Assembly: GCA_027365475.1 (NCBI GenBank)
Contig: DAHXNI010000080.1
Coordinates: 69,490-133,489 of the forward strand
Reading direction: 5' to 3'
From: Pseudomonadota bacterium
Lineage (GTDB): Bacteria > Pseudomonadota > Gammaproteobacteria > JAKAQQ01
DNA length: 64,000 bases
Positions within the stretch are counted from its first letter, which is position 1, and the number at the start of each line of letters is the position of its first letter. The position numbers and the translations under genes were made by a program. The notes beneath the pieces are model-generated. The model was not told where the DNA came from and did not search any database. It saw only the letters and a list, made by a program, of their open reading frames with translations. Below, piece by piece: positions 9,801 to 17,543 of this stretch.

Positions 9801-10046
9801 ACGCTCGCGTTCGATGATCTGCGCGATCGATTGCCACTGGATGGGTTCGATATAGATCTCATCCGCCATCTCGGGGTCGGTCATGATGGTCGCGGGATTC
9901 GAGTTGACGAGGATCACCCGGTAGCCCTCCTCCCTGAGGGCCTTGAGCGCCTGGGTACCGGAATAATCGAACTCCGAGGCCTGACCGATCACGATCGGTC
10001 CGGCACCGATGACCAGGATGCTCTCTAGATCTTCACGTCTCGGCAC
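6816..10046 (-). CDS. carB: carbamoyl-phosphate synthase large subunit
   Basis: [21 protein letters not shown] and duplicated ATP-grasp halves; GTG start ([11 protein letters not shown]) overlapping carA by 14 nt. Confidence 0.93.
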
Positions 10047-11229
10047 GGAATGCTCCGGAATCCATATTGCGGCTGCGCTGCGCGGTATGCGCCTGCATGA
10101 GGCGGAGAAAACGGTCGAAAAGACCGGCAGCGTCATGCGGGCCGGGGCTCGCCTCCGGATGCCCCTGAAAACCAAGTGCAGGAACATCCATCCTTTCGAT
10201 ACCCTGGAGTGACCCGTCGAAGAGCGAGCGGTGTGTGGGCACCAGGTTGGCGGGCAGATCCGTCTCATCGACCGCAAAGCCATGGTTCTGGCTCGTGATC
10301 CAGACCCGCCCGGTTGCCAGTTCCAATACGGGGTGATTCGCACCGTGGTGGCCGAATTTCATCTTGCGGGTTCGCGCACCGGATGCAAGCGCCAGCAGTT
10401 GATGTCCAAGACAGATGCCGAAAAACGGTACCCTCCGGTCCAGCCAAGCCTGGGCCTGGGCGATGGCATCCGTCATCGCCTCGGGATCGCCCGGCCCATT
10501 CGAAAAAAGGACGCCATCGGGACGAAGCGAATCGACCAGCTGTTCAACCCTGGTTGAGGCGGGAACGGTCGTGACCCGGCACCCGGTCTCCACGAGCAAT
10601 CTCAGGATGTTGCGTTTGACCCCGAAATCGTAGACCACCACATGGAGTCCATTCCCGCGGGATCGCTTGTCCAAAGCCCGTGCTTCACCCGGAAACGAGC
10701 TCCCTTCCACCCACGGGGCTTGCTCGGCCACGCTGACATTTTCCGAGAGGTCGCATCCCGCCATGGCAGGCACTCCTCGCGCCTCCCGAATGGCACGTTC
10801 GTGATCCTGGAGCGCGTCGGGTCCGGCCAGGATGCAGCCATTCTGGGCACCCCGGTCGCGCAGATGCCGGGTGAGTTTGCGGGTATCCACTTCGGCGATA
10901 GCGACGATTCCCCGGATCTCGAGAAAACGCGCGAGCGTGATCTCGGAACGCCAACTGCTGGCCACGGGACTTGCGTTCCGCATGATGAGCCCGGCGGTCG
11001 CAGGAGCCGCGCTTTCGCAGTCGGCGGCATTCGTGCCGACATTGCCGACATGCGGTGTGGTAAGCACCACAAGCTGGCCATAGTAGGAGGGGTCGGTGAG
11101 AATTTCTTGATAACCGGTGAGCGCGGTATTGAAAACCACCTCGCCCGTACGGATCCCCGCCCGGCCAATGGAGACACCCTCGAACACGGTTCCGTCTGCC
11201 AGGGCGAGGAGTGCGGGATCAGCCATCAA
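10033..11229 (-). CDS. carA: carbamoyl-phosphate synthase small subunit (glutamine amidotransferase)
   Basis: [18 protein letters not shown]; GATase triad region ...GICLGHQLL...; 398 aa. Confidence 0.93.
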
Positions 11230-11465
11230 GTATCAATAGTTGTCGTCACCAGGTCCGCGTACAGGCCAAGACAGCTGTTTGCGGGTATCGATTGAGCTTC
11301 AAGACCAAGAGGCAACTCTAGCAAGCGCTAGGGCTGCAATTTAACACACTGACCCTCCCCGCGGCTACAGCCGGTGGAGTCCGGGTGCCAATCGCAGGGG
11401 TTTTCCGGCTGCGTGCCATCAGGGCACACATACTGCATTCTCGTCACTCGCCATCGGATCGAGAT

Positions 11466-12185
11466 TCATGCCTTCGTGGCGATTACGGCCGGCGAGTGGC
11501 CACCAACATCCATCATCTCCACTGTGGTCTCGACCGTATGGAACCCCGCCTGGCACAGCCATTCGGTGTATTCGGCGAGCGTATAGGTGCCGCCTTCCTC
11601 GGTTGCGAGCAACATATTGAGGGCAAAAAATAAGGGGAACTCCGGTCCTGTGCGCGCGTCGTTGGGTAACATGTCCACGATCACGATCCGCCCGCCTGGC
11701 CGCAACGCCGCGTGAAGCCTGCGAAACAGATCGCGCGAGGAAGCTTCGCCCTCCGAGTGCACAATGTTTCCGAGGAGAGCTAAGTCAAAGCGATCGCGGC
11801 CAAAATCCACTTCTCTAAGATTTCCCGGCAGGAACTCATAGCGGTCCCCTACCCCCTGCTGGCGCACATACTGGCGGGTCAGATCCAGCACGGCTGGGAA
11901 GCCCTGGGCGACGAACCGCGCTTCCGGATCGGCTTCGCATACCGCGATGCCCCACACGCCCGAGCCGCAGGCGACGTCAATCCCGCGCAGGCCTTTGCGA
12001 CCCGCCGTCAATCGGCGCGCCAGCGTCTGCGCCTTGTCCCGGTTCTGAATATGGAGCGAACGCACCAGTGTGGGGAAGAACTCCTCGGCCTTTTGCTGCT
12101 GATTCACCGCCATCTGAGGCCGTCCCGTGCGCACCGCATCCGCCAGTTTCCCCCACATTTCCCACAACCGGTCCGCTTCCCACAT
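11466..12185 (-). pseudogene. C-terminal fragment (239 aa) of a family-2 (COMT-like, Methyltransf_2) O-methyltransferase, cut off from its N-terminal part by an IS110 insertion
   Basis: ADAVRTGRP...; motif I IDVACGSGVWG; C-terminal DMLPNDARTG...LNMLLATEEGGTYTLAEYTEWLCQAGF typical of plant/bacterial O-MT family 2; dimerisation domain missing here but found beyond the IS at 13727-14034. Confidence 0.7.
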
Positions 12186-12189
12186 GTTG

Positions 12190-13726
12190 ACACAGGGGGC
12201 TGACGTGCCGGGACAAGGGTCAGGCTGGATGTTGAGGGTTGAGGGGAAGAGGTCTGCCTCCGGTGTATCGTGGGTTACGCCCCATGGGGCGCCTATCCAC
12301 ACGCAGAGCGCCCGAGGGCGACTCTCTGCAGCAGTCAGAGGAGGCAGACCATGAGTAAGACTATCACTTCCTTCGTAGGGTTGGACGCGCACGCCGATTC
12401 GATCGCGATCGGGGTCGCGCCGAGCGGGCGGCAGGAGCCGCACTTTGTCGGGACCGTGTCCCCGCAGTGGGGATCGCTGTCGAAGGCGCTGAGTCGGTTG
12501 GGCCAGCCCGAAGCGCTCGAGATCGTCTACGAGGCAGGTCCCTGCGGGTACACCCTGGCGCGCCAGCTCGAGGCGCACGGTTACGCTTGTCGGGTGATCG
12601 CCCCGTCGAAGGTCGCGCGCCGGCCAGGGGATCGGATCAAGACCGACCGGCGTGACGCGCTGCTGCTGGCGCGGGCCGCGCGCGCCGGGGAGCTCGTGAG
12701 CGTCACGATCCCCGATGAGCGGGATGAGGTGATTCGCGACCTCTGCCGTGCCCGGGAGGATGCCGTGCGAGCCCGGCTGAAGGCGCGCCAACAGCTCAAG
12801 GCGATGCTGCTGCGCCATGGGCGTCGCTACGGCGGCCGCTCGTCCTGGACCGAAGCGCATGAGCGCTACCTGGCCGCGGTGAGCTTTACCCAGCCCGCGC
12901 AGGACATCGCCTTCGCTGAGTATCGCAGCGCCGTGCGCGAGGCTCACGAGCGGGTCGAACGCCTCACCGAGTCGATGCGTGCGCAGCTCGAACACTGGCG
13001 CATGCGCCCGGTAGTCGAGGCGCTCATGACGCTGCGGGGCATCGACATGGTAGCGGCCATGACGGTGGTCGCCGAGATCGGGGATTTCACCCGCTTGGCG
13101 CGCCCGCGCGAGCTGATGGGGTTTCTCGGGCTGGTGCCCTCGGAATACTCCAGTGGTCCCAAGCGTACGCAGGGGGAGATCACCAAGACCGGCAACAGCC
13201 ACGTGCGGCGCGTGCGGGTGGAGGCGGCCTGGAATTATCGCTTCCCGGCGCGCCAGATCGCTTGGAAGGCACAGTTGCGCCTCGCCCAGCGCTACCGGCA
13301 TCTCTCGGCCCGCAAGCTCGCCCTCAACAAGATCTGCGTCGCCATCGCGCGTGAGCTCTCGGGCTTCATCTGGGACATCGCCCGCCAGGTCAAGCCATCG
13401 AGCACCTGAGAGGTTGTCTCATCGCCATCGAATCGGAGGTAACACACAACCCAGCATCACCCACACAACCCACACCGACAACGCACGGGTCACGCGACGC
13501 CGGAGCACCGATGAGGGGAATCCTCGGCTGGGCTATGTGGGCATCCGCGTGATGATCCCCGATAGTAGAGCGAGGCAACCCCGCGACGGACGAATGAAAT
13601 GCCGGTAACCAATCCGCGGATATGAGCCTGATCATCGTCGCCAACTTCTGCTCTCGCGTCGCGTGACCCTTGCGCTGTTGATTCCGAAAGGTTCGCAAAT
13701 TGAGGCACGAAATCCGTGAGACAGAC
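12190..13726 (+). mobile_element. IS110-family insertion sequence (approx. boundaries)
   Basis: DEDD transposase flanked by 160-nt 5' and ~317-nt 3' non-coding ends; splits the O-MT reading frame; related motif gggggct(t)gac..ggggtcaggc at both junctions. Confidence 0.65.
12348..13409 (+). CDS. IS110-family (DEDD) transposase
   Basis: MSKTITSFVGLDAHADSIAIGV... N-terminal RuvC-like DEDD domain and C-terminal ...GPKRTQGEITKTGNSHVRRVRVEAA typical of IS110/IS1111 transposases; GGAGG RBS upstream of ATG 12348. Confidence 0.85.
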   Translation, partial: TMSKTITSFVGLDAHADSIAIGVAPSGRQEPHFVGTVSPQWGSLSKALSRLGQPEALEIVYEAGPCGYTLARQLEAHGYACRVIAPSKVARRPGDRIKTDRRDALLLARAARAGELVSVTIPDERDEVIRDLCRAREDAVRARLKARQQLKAMLLRHGRRYGGRSSWTEAHERYLAAVSFTQPAQDIAFAEYRSAVREAHERVERLTESMRAQLEHWRMRPVVEALMTLRGIDMVAAMTVVAEIGDFTRLARPRELMGFLGLVPSEYSSGPKRTQGEITKTGNSHVRRVRVEAAWNYRFPARQIAWKAQLRLAQRYRHLSARKLALNKICVAIARELSGFIWDIARQVKPSST

Positions 13727-14034
13727 CTATGGGGGCTTGACAGGGGTCAGGCCATATGAGCCCAGATAGTCCGGGCTCTCGCGTACCAGATAGCGCCGGC
13801 TCAGCGGAGTCAAGCCATAGGCGTCGGCTTGTTTTTCTACCAGCCCGAGCCCCGCCAGAGCATTGAGCAGCATGGCAGCTCCCCGTAGCGAACAGCCGGT
13901 ATGTTCGGCCACGGCTTTGGCCTTCTGACTGCCTCCGGCCAGTGCGGAAAAAACCTCAACTGCAGCGCCGCGCTCGACACGCGCTCCCCGGCAAAAGAAA
14001 AACTGAGATTGAGCAGCGCATCGGTAGTATCCAT
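13727..14034 (-). pseudogene. N-terminal (dimerisation-domain) fragment of the same O-methyltransferase, with an internal frameshift at an A6/T6 run (13948-13953)
   Basis: Frame A MDTTDALLNLSFSFAGERVSSAALQ then frame B AAVEVFSALAGGSQKAKAVAEHTGCSLRGAAMLLNALAGLGLVEKQADAYGLTPLSRRYLVRESPDY = O-MT dimerisation domain pattern; one extra T would restore a single frame. Confidence 0.6.
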
Positions 14035-14224
14035 TTTTCCGCCTCTGTCAAATTCAGGGTGGGCACCCATCATGGATAGAATACCGCCGGTGAACTTAAT
14101 GAGGAGTGGCAGTGATACCGGGTCGGTTACGCCTCTTGGCGGACAGGCCATAGCCGACGAAAATCGGAGGGGTCAGCTCGCCTGCAGGAATACGAATGCC
14201 CGATGGATCCCGCAACAAACCTGC

Positions 14225-17200
14225 TCAACCCTTGTGCCGCTTCTCGATTTCCTTGCGCAAGCGTTCGATCTCACGCCGTCTGGCTTCGGGCGTACCCCAT
14301 TTCGGTGGGTCACTCTCACGCCGCTGTTCCGCCGCCCCCTGCGCCGCGCGTTCCTCAGCTTGCCGTTTTTCCCGCTCACGAACCTCGGCCTCCCGACGCG
14401 CAATGGCGCGCTCGGCAGCAATTGGAATCGTGCGCACCGGGAGGCTGGCCATCGCCAAATATTGGTCGATGGAGCCCCAGACCAGATCCCAAGCAGACTC
14501 CCCGATAAATGGAAGATTGAGCGCCTGGAACACCGGTACCCAGACATCCGTATCGGCCTGTTTGCGGCGTACCGAAAGTCTGGGATTGAACTGATACCAG
14601 CCCTGCGCGACGCGCACAAACAAGGCACGGTTGTAGGCATAGTCACGGTCGACTTCGTTGCGCGATAGCACCGAGGAAAGATACGGCCGCTTGTTGCGTT
14701 CCGGCCGGACCACATTAGCGGGCAGAGTCTCCCACGCCTCGAGAATCGTCCGCGTCTCGAAAGCGCCATGGGGCCGCCGCTGCCGATGCGTGAAGCGTGA
14801 TTTGAAAAGTGTCCACATCGTCTGGAAGACGAAATATTCCGAGAGCTGGCGGTCTATGCGCACCATCCGCTCCCCTGTGTTAACGTCGACCACGCTCGGG
14901 GCGAGCAAATCAAACAGCGCGGCGAATGGGCCGCGGGCAAATGCCGCATCGCGGAAGGCCTCGCGCATCGCCCAGTGCAGTGCGTTGAAGCCGTAGTGAT
15001 CGACCACCTCGCGATCGGCGCCACGCTCCAACAGCGCCTCGGCGAGTGGCACATTGCCGGCGGCAGCCGCGGCCATCAGCGGCGTCTGGTTCATCGGCAG
15101 GCGGTGGTCGATTCCGTACTGATCGCACTGATGCAAAATATCCTTGAAGTGCTTGGCGAAATACTGACTGTAGCTCTTGCGCCCCAAGGTGGCGCGTTGC
15201 TGCGGAAATGAGCTCGCCATGTCAAACTTTACCTCCTGTGCCAACCAGGCGGCTAACGCCGGCTCGTCGTGGCAAGTGGCATACTCGTAGAGTTGCAGCC
15301 GGTGTTTGCTGCCCGGTGCCTGTTCGCGAAACACCTTGAGCAGCAGCGCCGTGACTTTTAACTCGTCGAACACCGGCCACGGGACGGGCGTCTGCCTGAG
15401 AATGTTGCGGCGAATCGCCTCGACCTGCTCCTTTTTGCCTTGCAGTTCGAGCTTGCGCGCTTCACGCTGCCAGTCTTCGGCCGTCGATTGTTTTGCCTCG
15501 ACCGTCATCGGCCCACCCAGCGCCAGATCGAGCAGCCCAAACAGGGGATGCGAGGTATCCGATTCGATGATGTAGAGGTTCCTGGTGGCTCGCGTCAGCG
15601 CCACGTAGAACGCGTTGACAAAGAACTTATAGACCTCGAGCGACTTGTCGCTCTTGTCTTTTGCCCGTCGGTAATCAAGCGTGTCAGTCACCAGATCCCG
15701 CTTCGAGACCCCCTCTCCGATTGCGGCAAATTCAGCGCGGTGATCGGAGACGAGGCGATAGAGCACGATATTCTCGTACTCGAGCCCCTTGGCCTCGTGG
15801 ATGGAAAAAAGCAAGGGCGTCGAAAAGTACCTGCGCGCCTCAACCTTGTCCTCGTCACGCATCACCAGCACTGCGAACTGAGTGGATTGACGGATCCTGA
15901 GGTCCAGTTCTTTCTTGACGTCATCCTTGTCGGACATGAGTCCCACCTGCCCGGCTGCGCCGCCGACCGCTTTCACGAGAAAGTTGCTTTCGCGGTCGAT
16001 CGAGCCGAAGCGCCGCTGCTTGATCTTGAGGAGCTGGTTAGCGACGCGGGTCGCTTCCTGCCCGTTGCGGAAGTTAGCAGTGAGCACCTGCAGTTCCTGA
16101 CGTTCCGCCAGTTGCGGGTCGTTCCAGAAAAGAGCCTTCACCTTCGCCCAGGAGAAGAAGTTGGGATGGACAATCTGGTTAGAATCGCCACACAACAGGA
16201 AATGGCCGGGCTTCCTGAGCGTCTTCAGAACGAGCGCCAGCTGGACGGCTGTAACATCCTGCACCTCGTCGATGACGACAAAATCATAGCGGGGCGCCGC
16301 CCGACCTTGCCATTCCTGGGAAACCAGATTGAGGTCAAAAAGACCCGCTTCGCCGAGCCAGAAACGATATTTCTCGAACAGTTCGTAGAGCGCGTCCCGG
16401 CGACTTTCGGGGAAAATGGATTGGCGTACACCGAGCGCCCGATAGTCATCCCGCGATAGCACACCGTCGGCCCCGGCGGTGATCACGCCGCGGATTTCCT
16501 CAAATGCCTGGTGGCCCTCGATGCCCCTGAAAGCCTGCCGCATCCGCGCAAACCAACCGGAAAAATCACGCCAAGTGGCCTCTCGCCCTGCCGGTACCCG
16601 AAGGGATTCGACAAACTCACGGTAGGAAAGGAATACGGCCTCCTGCCCCGGATGTTCGAAACCGTTGGCGTAATAGAGATCGCGAGCGTTCTGGGCAAGG
16701 TATGCGGAAAGGGTGACGTAAAGCACTTCCCCTTCTATGTGCTTCAGCTTCTCCAGGGTCAACGCCGTTTTCCCGCTACCGGCGCTGCCTGCCACGATCA
16801 TTGGAGGTGGCTGGCGATAGATGGCCTCCTGCGCGTCATCGAAGGAAATCGGCTTGTCGAGCAGGTGAATGACGGTGCGTTCCGGATGCAGATAACGTAA
16901 TGGTTGCGCTCCCTGGAGAGCCTCGGCAACATCGCCGTCCGTAATCTTTGATTCGTCGATCACGGCCCCGCGCAAAAAGCGCGACTTATCATAGTTGTGA
17001 TTGACGATGACCTCCAGCATCAGGGCACAGACCTCATCGCCATGACGCACGAGAGAGAACAGCAACCGGTCGGACTCGTTGAGCCTGGCGCGGTAGAACT
17101 TGCCATGGCTCAGATTGGCAAGCTTTTTGACTTGCGCAACGCCAAAGTCGCCGCGAGCGATGGCGTCGATCACCTTGCGATAGGCGTCCGTGACACGGGA

Positions 17201-17233
17201 CGTATCAAGGTCGATGTACTCAAGGATCTTCAT
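14225..17233 (-). CDS. Large multidomain protein (1002 aa): N-terminal RelE/ParE-like domain, UvrD/PcrA-like SF1 helicase core, ankyrin repeats, basic/acidic C-terminal tail
   Basis: aa 45-95 GKFYRARLNESDRLLFSLVRHGDEVCALMLEVIVNHNY (RelE/ParE pattern); Walker A IVAGSAGSGKT; Walker B FVVIDEVQD; GDSNQ; FSIHEAKGLEYENIVL; FYVALTRATRNLYI; ANK: TPLMAAAAAGNVPLAEALLERGADREVVDHYGFNALHWA; ATG 17233. Confidence 0.85.
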   Translation of the reverse strand: MKILEYIDLDTSRVTDAYRKVIDAIARGDFGVAQVKKLANLSHGKFYRARLNESDRLLFSLVRHGDEVCALMLEVIVNHNYDKSRFLRGAVIDESKITDGDVAEALQGAQPLRYLHPERTVIHLLDKPISFDDAQEAIYRQPPPMIVAGSAGSGKTALTLEKLKHIEGEVLYVTLSAYLAQNARDLYYANGFEHPGQEAVFLSYREFVESLRVPAGREATWRDFSGWFARMRQAFRGIEGHQAFEEIRGVITAGADGVLSRDDYRALGVRQSIFPESRRDALYELFEKYRFWLGEAGLFDLNLVSQEWQGRAAPRYDFVVIDEVQDVTAVQLALVLKTLRKPGHFLLCGDSNQIVHPNFFSWAKVKALFWNDPQLAERQELQVLTANFRNGQEATRVANQLLKIKQRRFGSIDRESNFLVKAVGGAAGQVGLMSDKDDVKKELDLRIRQSTQFAVLVMRDEDKVEARRYFSTPLLFSIHEAKGLEYENIVLYRLVSDHRAEFAAIGEGVSKRDLVTDTLDYRRAKDKSDKSLEVYKFFVNAFYVALTRATRNLYIIESDTSHPLFGLLDLALGGPMTVEAKQSTAEDWQREARKLELQGKKEQVEAIRRNILRQTPVPWPVFDELKVTALLLKVFREQAPGSKHRLQLYEYATCHDEPALAAWLAQEVKFDMASSFPQQRATLGRKSYSQYFAKHFKDILHQCDQYGIDHRLPMNQTPLMAAAAAGNVPLAEALLERGADREVVDHYGFNALHWAMREAFRDAAFARGPFAALFDLLAPSVVDVNTGERMVRIDRQLSEYFVFQTMWTLFKSRFTHRQRRPHGAFETRTILEAWETLPANVVRPERNKRPYLSSVLSRNEVDRDYAYNRALFVRVAQGWYQFNPRLSVRRKQADTDVWVPVFQALNLPFIGESAWDLVWGSIDQYLAMASLPVRTIPIAAERAIARREAEVREREKRQAEERAAQGAAEQRRESDPPKWGTPEARRREIERLRKEIEKRHKG

Positions 17234-17543
17234 TGTAACGTCCGCCCTTCGGAACTTTATGGGCCGGTAGGTGCCCTCACCCCCGCCGCAGTGCCGACCC
17301 CATGCCAGATATCGCAAAACATCCGGATCCGAATTATCATCCCGGCGGCAGATACAGCGTCAAAGAAAGGTGGGGCAGCACAAGAGGTGAATCCGAAGTG
17401 CTCGTAGAATGATGAGGCCGCCACCTCTTCCTTCGCGTGCAGACAACGGCCCAGCCAAGCCGAGAAGAAGCTTACCAAGTCCTGCGCCCCGGCGTTCCCG
17501 ATGAATGGCAAAACTCCCCATTCGGAAGCATGGAACCGAAGGA

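What the first reader, a model, noticed from the sequence alone, without database searches (positions are those of the whole stretch)
11466..14034. O-methyltransferase gene split in two by an IS110-family element, with an extra frameshift in the N-terminal piece
The dimerisation domain of a family-2 O-MT lies at 13727-14034 (minus strand). Its SAM-binding and C-terminal domains lie at 11466-12185. The ~1.5 kb between them is an IS110-type element with the opposite orientation. The N-terminal piece also needs a +1 shift at a T6 homopolymer (13948-13953) to read through; this is either a second inactivating lesion or a sequencing error. Both junctions carry a related ~25-nt motif, gggggctgacgtgccgggacaagggtcaggc on the left and gggggcttgacaggggtcaggc on the right. 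Inside each copy there is a short inverted pair, aggtctg and cagacct. Together these look like a duplicated or palindromic target plus subterminal inverted repeats, as described for IS1111-type elements.
Basis: seen in the sequence. Interest (0 to 1): 0.55.

Follow-up and report, generated by a model that had tools for sequence, protein, structure and literature searches.

The report
Methyltransferase gene split by IS1111-type element
An O-methyltransferase gene has been cut in two by a bridge-RNA-guided (IS1111-type) insertion sequence sitting exactly where its own guide RNA points; gene and element have since picked up further disabling mutations, so it is an ordinary dead gene but a clean natural example of RNA-guided insertion.

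Summary
A family-2 O-methyltransferase gene on the minus strand is interrupted by a 1,571-bp IS110-family element of the IS1111 group (12188-13758, plus strand). Removing the element and restoring one T gives a single ORF, 84.6% identical end to end to an intact homologue. That homologue's DNA shows the empty site, CACATGT|AGCCCAG. No target bases were lost or duplicated.

The frameshift is a T7-to-T6 deletion at 13948-13953. It recurs in two further assemblies that differ from the window by 5 SNPs, so it is not a read error.

Both "junction motifs" lie inside the element, and there is no target duplication. The true subterminal repeats are ATGGCCTGAC/GTCAGGCCAT. "aggtctg" belongs to a conserved stem that sequesters the Shine-Dalgarno sequence.

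The 3' non-coding region encodes a bridge/seek RNA with strong covariation support. Its guides match this exact site (CUGGGCUA pairs with TAGCCCAG). Guide and flank covary across 82 related insertions.

This copy is decaying. Its left terminus carries four bases seen in 0 of 116 relatives, which removes the left repeat and the junction-promoter -10. The transposase lacks a 17-aa helix present in all 159 relatives.

It is a new member of a known kind, of modest interest.

The parts
11466..12187 (-). C-terminal part of the O-methyltransferase (MT) gene, carrying the SAM-binding domain. The stop codon is at 11466-11468. The last two bases, GT at 12186-12187, are two-thirds of the split Tyr codon.
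   Evidence: Pfam Methyltransf_2, E 7.9e-16. It aligns to residues ~105-342 of P0121, P0122 and P0123. The identical 239-aa product is annotated in NCBI and JGI records (P0124).
12188..13758 (+). IS110-family element of the IS1111 group, 1,571 bp. The limits carry a 2-bp ambiguity (AG), so 12190-13760 is equally valid.
   Evidence: Homology to L081, L082 and L085 stops at these points. In-silico excision restores the MT ORF. The empty site is seen in L162.
12188..12194 (+). Left 7-bp terminal extension, TGACACA. The family consensus is AGACAyn, and the first base is mutated.
   Evidence: Position 2 of the TAG-numbered left end is A in 114 of 116 relatives and never T. The 7-bp and 3-bp extensions follow PMC11187229.
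12195..12204 (+). Degraded left subterminal inverted repeat, GGGGGCTGAC. The closest relatives have ATGGCCTGAC. In the circular form this stretch also holds the end of the predicted junction-promoter -10.
   Evidence: A9 and T10 are invariant in 116 of 116 relatives, and the window has G and G. The -10 hexamer reads CACAGG, against CAyyAT in relatives.
12219..12225 (+). 3' arm (GTCAGGC) of the left-end hairpin. It repeats the sequence of the right subterminal repeat.
   Evidence: A stem of 6 bp or more between the left repeat and a downstream complement occurs in 65% of 17 close relatives against 7% of shuffles, with differing stem sequences (alignment).
12251..12350 (+). 5'-UTR structure of the transposase mRNA. 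GGTCTGCCTCC (12251-12261) pairs with GGAGGCAGACC (12340-12350), which covers the Shine-Dalgarno sequence.
   Evidence: The arms are 11 nt and 100% complementary (I18). The stem is kept in 17 relatives, with C-G to U-A compensation in 3 of them.
12351..13409 (+). DEDD/RuvC-type transposase (bridge recombinase) gene, 352 aa. A 51-nt in-frame deletion lies at about 13249/13250.
   Evidence: Pfam PF01548 and PF02371. NF033542. The closest relatives are 368-369 aa. The deleted 17 aa are present in 159 of 159 relatives. The deletion is flanked by GCGC microhomology. The AF2 model of the full-length relative P0001 matches IS621 and ISCro4.
13482..13674 (+). Bridge/seek RNA gene: an outer stem (13482-13505 / 13651-13674) enclosing a target-binding loop and a donor-binding loop.
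   Evidence: RNAalifold on 54 sequences gives 38 pairs, 30 of them with compensatory changes. 92.2% of cells are paired. The covariation score is 0.491 against at most 0.131 when partners are slid, and 0 of 500 shuffles reach it. No Rfam family matches.
13528..13535 (+). 5'-side target guide, CUGGGCUA. It is complementary to the top strand TAGCCCAG, i.e. the last left-flank base plus the first 7 right-flank bases.
   Evidence: It matches the MT site 8 of 8. Across 82 distinct insertions the guide is Watson-Crick complementary to right-flank positions +1 to +5 after TAG in 68-91% of cases, against 25-29% in permutations (maximum 45%). This is the top mutual-information signal.
13565..13568 (+). 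3'-side target guide, GUAG. It has the same sense as the left-flank G-T plus AG, so it pairs with the bottom strand.
   Evidence: Identity with the left flank at positions -1, -2 and -3 is 90%, 48% and 49%, against 45%, 27% and 28% in permutations.
13620..13626 (+). Donor-binding-loop guide, AUAUGAG. It has the same sense as the right end of the element plus the first left-end base.
   Evidence: The same heptamer sits at the right terminus, 13754-13760. RNA column 187 equals right-end position -3 in 47 of 47 sequences. L018 (ATACGAG) and L049 (ATACCAG) covary.
13737..13742 (+). TTGACA, the predicted -35 of the promoter formed across the circle junction.
   Evidence: A TTGACA-like hexamer lies 17-18 nt from CAyyAT of the left end in 94 of 117 predicted circle junctions. 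The principle comes from PMC11208160 and PMC11187229. No promoter-like site is found in the integrated copy.
13746..13758 (+). Right subterminal inverted repeat, GTCAGGCCAT (13746-13755), plus the 3-bp extension ATG.
   Evidence: The right end agrees fully with the family consensus at its conserved positions. Homology to relatives ends here.
13759..14034 (-). N-terminal part of the MT gene (dimerisation domain). It may extend to the ATG at 14073.
   Evidence: Pfam PF08100, E 2e-7. Alignment to P0121 and P0123.
13948..13953 (-). T6 run (A6 on the plus strand): a 1-nt deletion relative to the T7 of the homologue, causing a frameshift.
   Evidence: DNA alignment with L162. The run is identical in L165 and L166. 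Adding one T restores the frame.

Best explanation
An IS1111-group member of the IS110 family inserted into an intact family-2 O-methyltransferase (MT) gene by RNA-guided site-specific recombination. The element is a DEDD recombinase gene followed by a ~190-nt bridge/seek RNA gene.

Insertion step (mechanism inferred from the characterised family; sequence match shown). [quoted passage not shown] Recombination placed the element between T and AG of CACATGT|AGCCCAG, in the Tyr codon of ...DYLG-Y-MWE.... Nothing was lost or duplicated. The donor-binding loop (AUAUGAG) recognises the element's own right end.

Later changes (shown, order unknown):
- The MT gene lost one T from a T7 run.
- The element's left terminus accumulated substitutions at otherwise invariant positions: the first base A to T, and ATGGCC to GGGGGC. 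These remove the left subterminal repeat and the -10 of the junction promoter.
- The recombinase lost a conserved 17-aa helix through a 51-nt deletion between GCGC repeats.

All of this is shared by strains 0.07% apart.

Conclusion (inferred): the copy is a fixed, probably immobile fossil, and the MT is a pseudogene.
For: Split gene and clean excision:
- The pieces align end to end with P0121, P0122 and P0123.
- Removing 12188-13758 and adding one T gives a 332/345-aa ORF, 84.6% identical to P0121 over 338 columns.
- L162 DNA at the site reads GACTATCTGGGCTACATGTGGGAA.

Element identity:
- Pfam and NCBIfam matches.
- 8,000 homologues.
- Foldseek's top hits are the IS621 and ISCro4 bridge-recombinase complexes, E ~5e-12.

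Ends:
- Comparison with L081, L082 and L084-L089, and then with 116 distinct relatives.

RNA:
- A covariation-supported structure.
- Guide-flank covariation over 82 insertions, with no permutation reaching the observed value at positions +1 to +5 and -1 to -3 (mutual information).
- The window guide matches its own site 8 of 8.
- The close relatives L081 and L082 have different guides that match their own flanks.

Decay:
- Left-end bases at positions 2, 9, 10 and 13 occur in 0 of 116 relatives.
- The -10 reads CACAGG, against CAyyAT.
- The 17-aa segment is present in 159 of 159 relatives. In the model it forms helix 304-310 plus the start of helix 315-337, at pLDDT above 90.

Reproducibility:
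- L165 (NCBI GCA_054609815.1) and L166 (Logan SRR36271373) share every lesion and differ by 5 SNPs in 7 kb.
Against: - No experiment or read data was available.
- Immobility is inferred only from departures from conservation. The effect of the 17-aa deletion and of the left-end changes on recombination is untested.
- The catalytic DEDD and SG residues are intact, and so is the RNA.
- The 3'-side guide matches only G-TAG here; positions -2 and -3 mismatch.
- The donor guide for the left end could not be identified.
- The empty site comes from an 85%-identical homologue in a different genomic context, not from a sister strain. The ancestral codon (TAC) is therefore inferred.
Confidence: 0.88

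Rival explanations
1. The element is still mobile. The odd left end and the shorter transposase are tolerated variants, not decay.
For: The transposase ORF is open, and the invariant DEDD and SSG residues are present. The bridge RNA is almost identical to that of L081. The right end is fully consensus. NF033542 aligns over its whole 343-position profile.
Against: Four left-end bases occur in 0 of 116 relatives, two of them at strictly invariant positions. The junction-promoter -10 is lost. The deleted segment is kept in 159 of 159 relatives and is confidently helical. There is no second copy in the 64-kb window. The insertion is shared by diverged strains. No compensating change appears in the RNA relative to L081.
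Confidence: 0.12
2. The T at 12188 (left junction TTG instead of TAG) is the original target base, meaning insertion at a site with a mismatched core. It would not be a later mutation of the element.
For: The ancestral MT codon is not known directly. This residue varies among homologues (Y, Y, H, Q, S, A). Some tolerance of core mismatch is reported for IS621.
Against: In 17 relatives whose two junctions differ (left TAG, right CAA), the left AG follows the element: the donor guide still reads CAG. The right base follows the target guide, which reads UUA. The base at 12188 is therefore element-derived. It sits next to four other lineage-specific changes. The two closest homologues have Tyr, and L162 reads TAC.
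Confidence: 0.12
3. One reading: the related motifs at both junctions are a duplicated or palindromic target, with aggtctg/cagacct as the subterminal inverted repeats.
For: The motifs are real and occur only at these two places in the window. aggtctg and cagacct are part of a 23-nt, 74% complementary pair (I2).
Against: Both motifs lie inside the stretch that is homologous to other copies sitting in unrelated flanks. The empty site lacks them. cagacct is not conserved in L081, L082 or L085. aggtctg pairs instead with the Shine-Dalgarno region, with compensatory changes.
Confidence: 0.02
4. Assembly or sequencing artefact: a chimeric join of a multi-copy IS into the contig, and/or a homopolymer miscall that creates the frameshift.
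For: The source is a metagenome assembly. IS elements and homopolymers are classic trouble spots.
Against: Three assemblies from different sources (JGI, NCBI MAG, Logan) give the same junctions, the same T6, the same 51-nt deletion and the same left end. Two of them differ from the window by 5 SNPs, so they are not copies of one assembly. The element's guide RNA matches this very site.
Confidence: 0.03
5. These are two independent genes (a natural split or fission) that happen to flank an IS.
For: The 239-aa C-terminal ORF starts with ATG and is annotated as a gene in public records (P0124).
Against: The pieces abut to the codon on single 340-342-aa homologues. The N piece has no stop of its own and runs into the IS. 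No Shine-Dalgarno sequence or promoter-like site precedes the ATG at 12185.
Confidence: 0.01

Closest known systems
IS1111-group insertion sequences with seekRNA (ISEc11, ISPa11, ISKpn4, ISPst6; Siddiquee et al. 2024, PMC11187229)
   Same: - A DEDD transposase with the GL-P----SG motif.
- The long non-coding region lies downstream of tnp.
- Subterminal inverted repeats with 7-bp left and 3-bp right extensions.
- No target duplication and a single orientation.
- The RNA has a top-strand match 5' of a bottom-strand match, and the two matches overlap in the target.
- Close relatives are naturally retargeted by guide changes.
   Different: - The transposases of this clade are 368-369 aa, against 330-350 aa quoted for the family. 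The window copy is 352 aa through a deletion.
- The target here is a coding sequence (T|AG plus 5 nt), not REP, attC or transposon ends.
- This copy has a degraded left repeat.
- No RNA or transposition data exist for this clade.
IS621 / ISCro4 bridge recombinase-bridge RNA systems (Durrant et al. 2024, PMC11208160; PDB 8wt6, 9t56)
   Same: - The fold matches (Foldseek E ~5e-12 over the full length).
- The RNA has two loops: a target-binding loop and a donor-binding loop.
- Each loop has a guide to the top strand on one side and a guide to the bottom strand on the other, and both guides include the core.
- A promoter is rebuilt across the circle junction.
   Different: - Sequence similarity is only marginal (phmmer E 8e-5).
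- The RNA is encoded in the right end, not the left end.
- The order of the guides is reversed.
- The subterminal repeats are long.
- The core region reads (T)AG, not CT.
ISSfr2-like and other 'IS110 family transposase' genes on alpha- and betaproteobacterial plasmids
   Same: 64-70% nucleotide identity over the tnp gene. They are therefore the same broad clade, already named in annotation.
   Different: None of them covers the ends or the RNA region of the window element at blastn level. The closest full-length relatives are unannotated metagenome contigs (L081 at 87%, L082 at 80%).
Family-2 O-methyltransferases with an N-terminal dimerisation domain (Pfam PF08100 + PF00891; weak similarity to BchU/CrtF, TIGR02716)
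   Same: The domain order and the SAM-binding motifs. The restored gene is a 332-345-aa protein, like its homologues.
   Different: The substrate is unknown. TIGR02716 scores far below its cutoff (56 bits against 276). The gene here is inactivated twice.

Membership tests
IS110 family (DEDD transposase elements) | An N-terminal RuvC-like DEDD domain plus a C-terminal Transposase_20 domain with a catalytic Ser-Gly | tested here: met
   PF01548 (E 4.9e-15) and PF02371 (E 5.2e-19). NF033542 scores 243 bits against a cutoff of 140. D12, E61, D99, D102 and the SSG motif are conserved. The fold matches IS621.
IS110 family (DEDD transposase elements) | No target-site duplication; insertion at a specific sequence in one orientation | tested here: met
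   In-silico excision restores the ORF exactly. The empty site is seen in L162. Flanks of 82 insertions follow the guides.
IS1111 group | Subterminal inverted repeats (usually 11-13 bp) with 7-bp left and 3-bp right terminal extensions | tested here: inconclusive
   The feature is met in relatives: for example ATGGCCTGACG/CGTCAGGCCAT in L081, 6 bp or longer in most of the family, with extensions AGACAyn and AT(C/G). In the window copy the right repeat is intact, but the left one reads GGGGGCTGAC, so only about 5-7 bp still pair.
IS1111 group | The longer non-coding region lies downstream of tnp | tested here: met
   The left non-coding region is 163 nt (12188-12350). The right one is 349 nt (13410-13758).
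IS1111 group | GL-P----S(T)G motif in the C-terminal domain | tested here: met
   GLVPSEYSSG is present in the window protein and in all aligned relatives.
IS1111 group | A seekRNA/bridge RNA from the 3' non-coding region, with the top-strand match 5' of the bottom-strand match | tested here: met
   The structure has covariation support. [quoted passage not shown] The 3' guide has the same sense as the left flank. Expression and protein binding of the RNA are not testable with these tools.
IS1111 group | A circular intermediate with abutted ends that creates a promoter | not testable with these tools
   Sequence evidence only: TTGACA lies 17-18 nt from CAyyAT in 94 of 117 predicted junctions. 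In the window the -10 is destroyed and the spacer would be 19 nt.
Family-2 O-methyltransferase | Dimerisation domain followed by the Methyltransf_2 SAM-dependent domain in one polypeptide | tested here: met
   PF08100 on the N piece and PF00891 on the C piece. The restored ORF aligns over the full length with 340-342-aa homologues that carry both domains. As it stands in the window, the gene is disrupted.

The most novel reading that the evidence does not exclude
The lesions in the element may not be random decay. The unique substitutions are confined to the left terminus. There they remove, at once, the first IS base, the left subterminal repeat and the junction-promoter -10. A conserved recombinase helix is also cleanly deleted in frame. 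Meanwhile the bridge RNA and the right end remain intact. This pattern could reflect a specific way of 'locking' an RNA-guided IS. One possibility is a scar of aborted excision or error-prone repair at the left cleavage site. Another is retention of an immobilised copy as a source of guide RNA or recombinase acting in trans on other copies.
Probability: 0.06. Interest if true: 0.55.

Novelty: new member of a known kind. Interest (0 to 1): 0.25.

Why it matters
For genome annotation, the 239-aa 'SAM-dependent methyltransferase' in public records is the tail of a pseudogene. The 61-aa and 104-aa ORFs upstream are its head.

For mobile-element biology, the locus is a tidy natural example of bridge/seek-RNA targeting in an uncharacterised, environmentally widespread IS1111-type clade, found mainly in Steroidobacteraceae and other soil and sediment bacteria. 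The element's own guide spells out the site it occupies. The empty site is recoverable from a homologue. More than 80 related insertions give a guide code of about 3 nt on the left, then T|AG, then 5 nt on the right, which could be used to predict targets.

It also shows what a decaying copy of such an element looks like.

None of this changes current understanding of the family.

Tried and rejected
- Rfam scan of 11000-14600 at E up to 1 found no family. The RNA had to be defined from relatives instead.
- A search for other copies of the element or its ends in the window found none.
- blastn against plasmids gave only tnp-internal hits at 64-70% identity, which did not help to define the ends.
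- I first took 'CCGCGUG' (13545-13551) for the left-flank guide. I rejected this: it is the loop of a variable-length hairpin, CAUC...GAUG.
- I looked for the donor guide to the left end on the 5' side of the donor loop. Only a weak, clade-level correlation appeared (RNA column 156 against left-end position 8), so it remains unresolved.
- I tested whether the left-end hairpin that mirrors the right subterminal repeat is a family-wide feature. Exact 6-7-mer tests were near background (5-8 of 116, against control maxima of 7). A stem-based test shows that the hairpin is mainly a feature of the close clade.
- I considered that the 17-aa gap might be a clade-specific insertion that the window simply lacks, because the NF033542 profile is 343 positions long. 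I rejected this: all 159 relatives down to 48% identity carry the segment.
- I considered short-patch conversion of the left end from the right-end-proximal TATGGGGGCTTGAC. The sequences do not fit a simple conversion, so this is left unexplained.
- A promoter scan of the integrated element found none.
Full report
**Observation**

The minus strand of 11466-14034 carries the two halves of a family-2 O-methyltransferase (MT). The stretch 11469-12185 matches Pfam Methyltransf_2 (E 7.9e-16) and several SAM-binding models. The stretch 13730-13912 matches the O-MT dimerisation domain (E 2e-7). Between them, on the plus strand, ORF 12351-13409 carries DEDD_Tnp_IS110 and Transposase_20. It also passes NCBIfam NF033542, 'IS110 family RNA-guided transposase', at 243 bits against a cutoff of 140. 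In the dimerisation-domain frame there is no start codon upstream of 13912, so a frame change is needed to reach the ATG at 14034.

**One gene, cleanly interrupted**

A search with the joined pieces found intact 340-342-aa homologues: P0121 at 85%, P0122 at 82% and P0123 at 78%. The alignment runs ...VRESPDYLG-[Y/H/Q/S/A]-MWE(A/T)(N/D)RLWE... with no gap other than the inserted DNA.

The DNA of the closest homologue (L162, NCBI DAHVPZ010000068.1) reads GACTATCTGGGCTACATGTGGGAA at this point. In the orientation of the IS this is CCCACATGT|AGCCCAGATAG. The window has CCCACATGT-TGACAC... on the left and ...CCATATG-AGCCCAGATAG on the right.

Deleting 12188-13758 (1,571 bp) and adding one T to the homopolymer gives a single ORF of 332 aa (345 aa from the upstream ATG). 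It is 84.6% identical to P0121 over 338 columns. No target bases were lost or duplicated.

The frameshift is a T7-to-T6 deletion at 13948-13953 relative to L162.

**Reality of the lesions**

The exact C-terminal product is on record in three assemblies. L164 (JGI 3300024473) is identical to the window. L165 (NCBI GCA_054609815.1) and L166 (Logan SRR36271373) differ from it by 5 SNPs in 7 kb. They nevertheless share the insertion, the T6 run, the short transposase and the unusual left end. The features are therefore real and predate the split of these strains.

**Ends of the element**

The closest relatives of the transposase are unannotated metagenome sequences. L081 (87% nucleotide identity) and L082 (80%, a 1,640-nt contig that is essentially the element alone) are homologous from 12189 to 13761. 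Scans of genome and metagenome collections gave 160 loci, many from Steroidobacteraceae and other Gammaproteobacteria MAGs.

Alignment of the ends and a motif survey show the following:
- Relatives begin (T)AGACAynATGG followed by a variable 6-7 nt.
- They end with TTGACA, 2-4 nt, the complement of that variable stretch, then CCATAT(C/G)(AG).

This gives subterminal inverted repeats such as ATGGCCTGAC/GTCAGGCCAT. The terminal extensions are 7 bp on the left and 3 bp on the right, exactly as described for the IS1111 family (PMC11187229).

In 17 relatives the left junction reads TAG but the right junction reads CAA. In these, the donor guide of the RNA still reads CAG, while the target guide reads UUA. 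The AG at the left junction therefore belongs to the element. The two bases after ATAT(C/G) at the right junction belong to the target.

**The junction motifs**

The shared GTCAGGC is the right subterminal repeat (13746-13752). On the left it is the 3' arm (12219-12225) of a hairpin formed with the left subterminal repeat. In the 17 closest relatives, 65% have a stem of at least 6 bp at this place, against 7% of shuffles, and the stem sequences differ between elements. The hairpin is much weaker in the rest of the family.

CT(T)GAC is the left repeat on one side and the conserved TTGACA on the other. GGGGGC on the left is specific to this lineage.

aggtctg is one arm of an 11-bp stem (12251-12261 with 12340-12350) that covers the transposase Shine-Dalgarno sequence. 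The stem is kept in 17 relatives and shows compensatory changes in three. cagacct is not conserved.

**The RNA**

The best-conserved part of the element, even in relatives at 50% protein identity, is 13480-13680. Rfam has no match.

An alignment of 54 diverse copies folds into a 20-bp outer stem enclosing two internal-loop modules. Thirty of 38 pairs show compensatory changes. Of all cells, 92.2% are paired. The covariation score is 0.491, against at most 0.131 when the partners are slid, and 0 of 500 shuffles reach it.

The first module is closed by CCUCG/CGAGG and GGGG/CCCC. Its two sides behave as target guides:
- The 5' side (N5-CUA) is Watson-Crick complementary to the right flank. Over 82 distinct insertions the match at positions +1 to +5 after TAG is 91, 87, 82, 85 and 68%, against 25-29% in permutations (maximum 45%).
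- The 3' side (N-UAG) equals the left flank at positions -1 to -3 in 90, 48 and 49% of cases, against 45, 27 and 28%.

These are also the top mutual-information signals.

The second module is closed by CGACG/CGUCG. It carries AUAU(C/G)AG, which has the same sense as the right terminus and follows its variants: 47 of 47 at the C/G position, plus ATACGAG in L018 and ATACCAG in L049.

The order of the guides, with the top-strand match 5' of the bottom-strand match and the two overlapping at the insertion point, is the one reported for IS1111 seekRNAs (PMC11187229). It is the reverse of IS621 (PMC11208160).

In the window the guides read CUGGGCUA (13528-13535) and GUAG (13565-13568). The occupied site is ...G-T|AGCCCAG.... 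L081 and L082, only 13-20% diverged, carry GACGCUA and AGAAGCUA and sit next to CGTC and CTTCT respectively. That is natural retargeting.

The element therefore stands at the address written in its own RNA.

**The protein**

An AlphaFold model of the full-length relative P0001 (pLDDT 85) finds the IS621 and ISCro4 bridge-recombinase complexes as its best structural matches, at E ~5e-12 over the full length. Sequence similarity to IS621 is marginal, at E 8e-5.

**Decay of this copy**

The right end is fully consensus. The left end is not. At positions 2, 9, 10 and 13 (numbering from the T of TAG) it carries bases found in 0 of 116 distinct relatives. A9 and T10 are otherwise invariant. No other fetched locus has this left end.

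These changes destroy the left subterminal repeat. In the predicted circle junction, 94 of 117 relatives place TTGACA 17-18 nt from CAyyAT. The window would give CACAGG with a 19-nt spacer, so the junction promoter known for this family would also be lost. No compensating change is seen in the RNA.

The transposase is 352 aa, against 368-369 aa in relatives. A 51-nt deletion between GCGC repeats removes 17 residues. These residues are present in 159 of 159 relatives down to 48% identity. In the model they form a short helix plus the first turn of a long helix, at pLDDT above 90.

Between the two strain variants there are two SNPs inside the element. One changes R108 to L, and one lies in the RNA.

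I infer, but cannot prove, that this copy can no longer move.

**Comparison and novelty**

Everything fits the IS1111 group of the IS110 family and its seek/bridge-RNA mechanism, both described in 2024. The broad clade is already named in annotation: ISSfr2-like 'IS110 family transposase' genes on plasmids show 64-70% nucleotide identity.

New here are the particular element, its guide code and target, and the documentation of a degraded copy. The gene disruption itself is ordinary.

**Uncertain points**

- The left-end donor guide was not found.
- The origin of the left-end substitution cluster is unexplained, including its resemblance to the right-end-proximal TGGGGGC.
- The order of the MT frameshift and the insertion is unknown.
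- The ancestral codon rests on an 85%-identical homologue rather than on a sister strain.

Noticed in passing
L013, L021, L027, L067, L114, L116, L124, L127, L136, L139, L154, L157, L158 (element ends): About 17 of 117 family members have TAG at the left junction but CAA at the right junction. Their target guide reads UUA, while their donor guide still reads AUAUCAG. The two 'core' copies are therefore not identical. This helps to place the crossover (element = AGACA...ATATC, target T|AA).
   Followed up: partly
window 13737-13742 with 12191-12196; all loci: In the predicted circle junction, TTGACA in the right end lies 17-18 nt from CAyyAT in the left end in 94 of 117 elements. This looks like a conserved junction promoter. 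The invariant A and T of the left end are the last two bases of the -10.
   Followed up: partly
L081:4172-4319, L082, window 13528-13535: Elements 80-87% identical to the window copy carry different 5-nt target guides (GACG, AGAAG, CUGGG), each matching its own right flank. Guides in this clade therefore turn over quickly.
   Followed up: partly
window 12251-12261 / 12340-12350: A conserved 11-bp stem in the left end sequesters the transposase Shine-Dalgarno sequence (GGAGG). Two further conserved hairpins lie between its arms. It is probably translational control against read-through from outside the element.
   Followed up: partly
window ~11500-11540 (minus strand): The C-terminus of the methyltransferase has a 4-aa in-frame insertion relative to all six aligned homologues (HTVETTVEMMDVGG against RTVET----LDVNS). 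It looks like an imperfect local duplication.
   Followed up: no
window 12188-12204 vs 13728-13741: The mutated left end (ACACAGGGGGCTGAC) resembles the right-end-proximal CTATGGGGGCTTGAC. The match does not fit a simple conversion tract, and its cause is unexplained.
   Followed up: partly
window 14225-17317 (minus) and 10033-11229 (minus): The neighbouring genes are a 1,030-aa UvrD-like helicase with ankyrin repeats (upstream of the MT) and carA, followed by carB (downstream). The MT homologues L162 and L163 sit in different contexts (radical-SAM, and Rieske/cytochrome b), so the MT is not in a conserved operon.
   Followed up: no
window 12673 and 13578: Two of the five SNPs that separate the window from L165 and L166 fall inside the 1.57-kb element. 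One is R108L in the transposase. The other is A/G in the bridge RNA, where the other strain has the family-consensus G.
   Followed up: no
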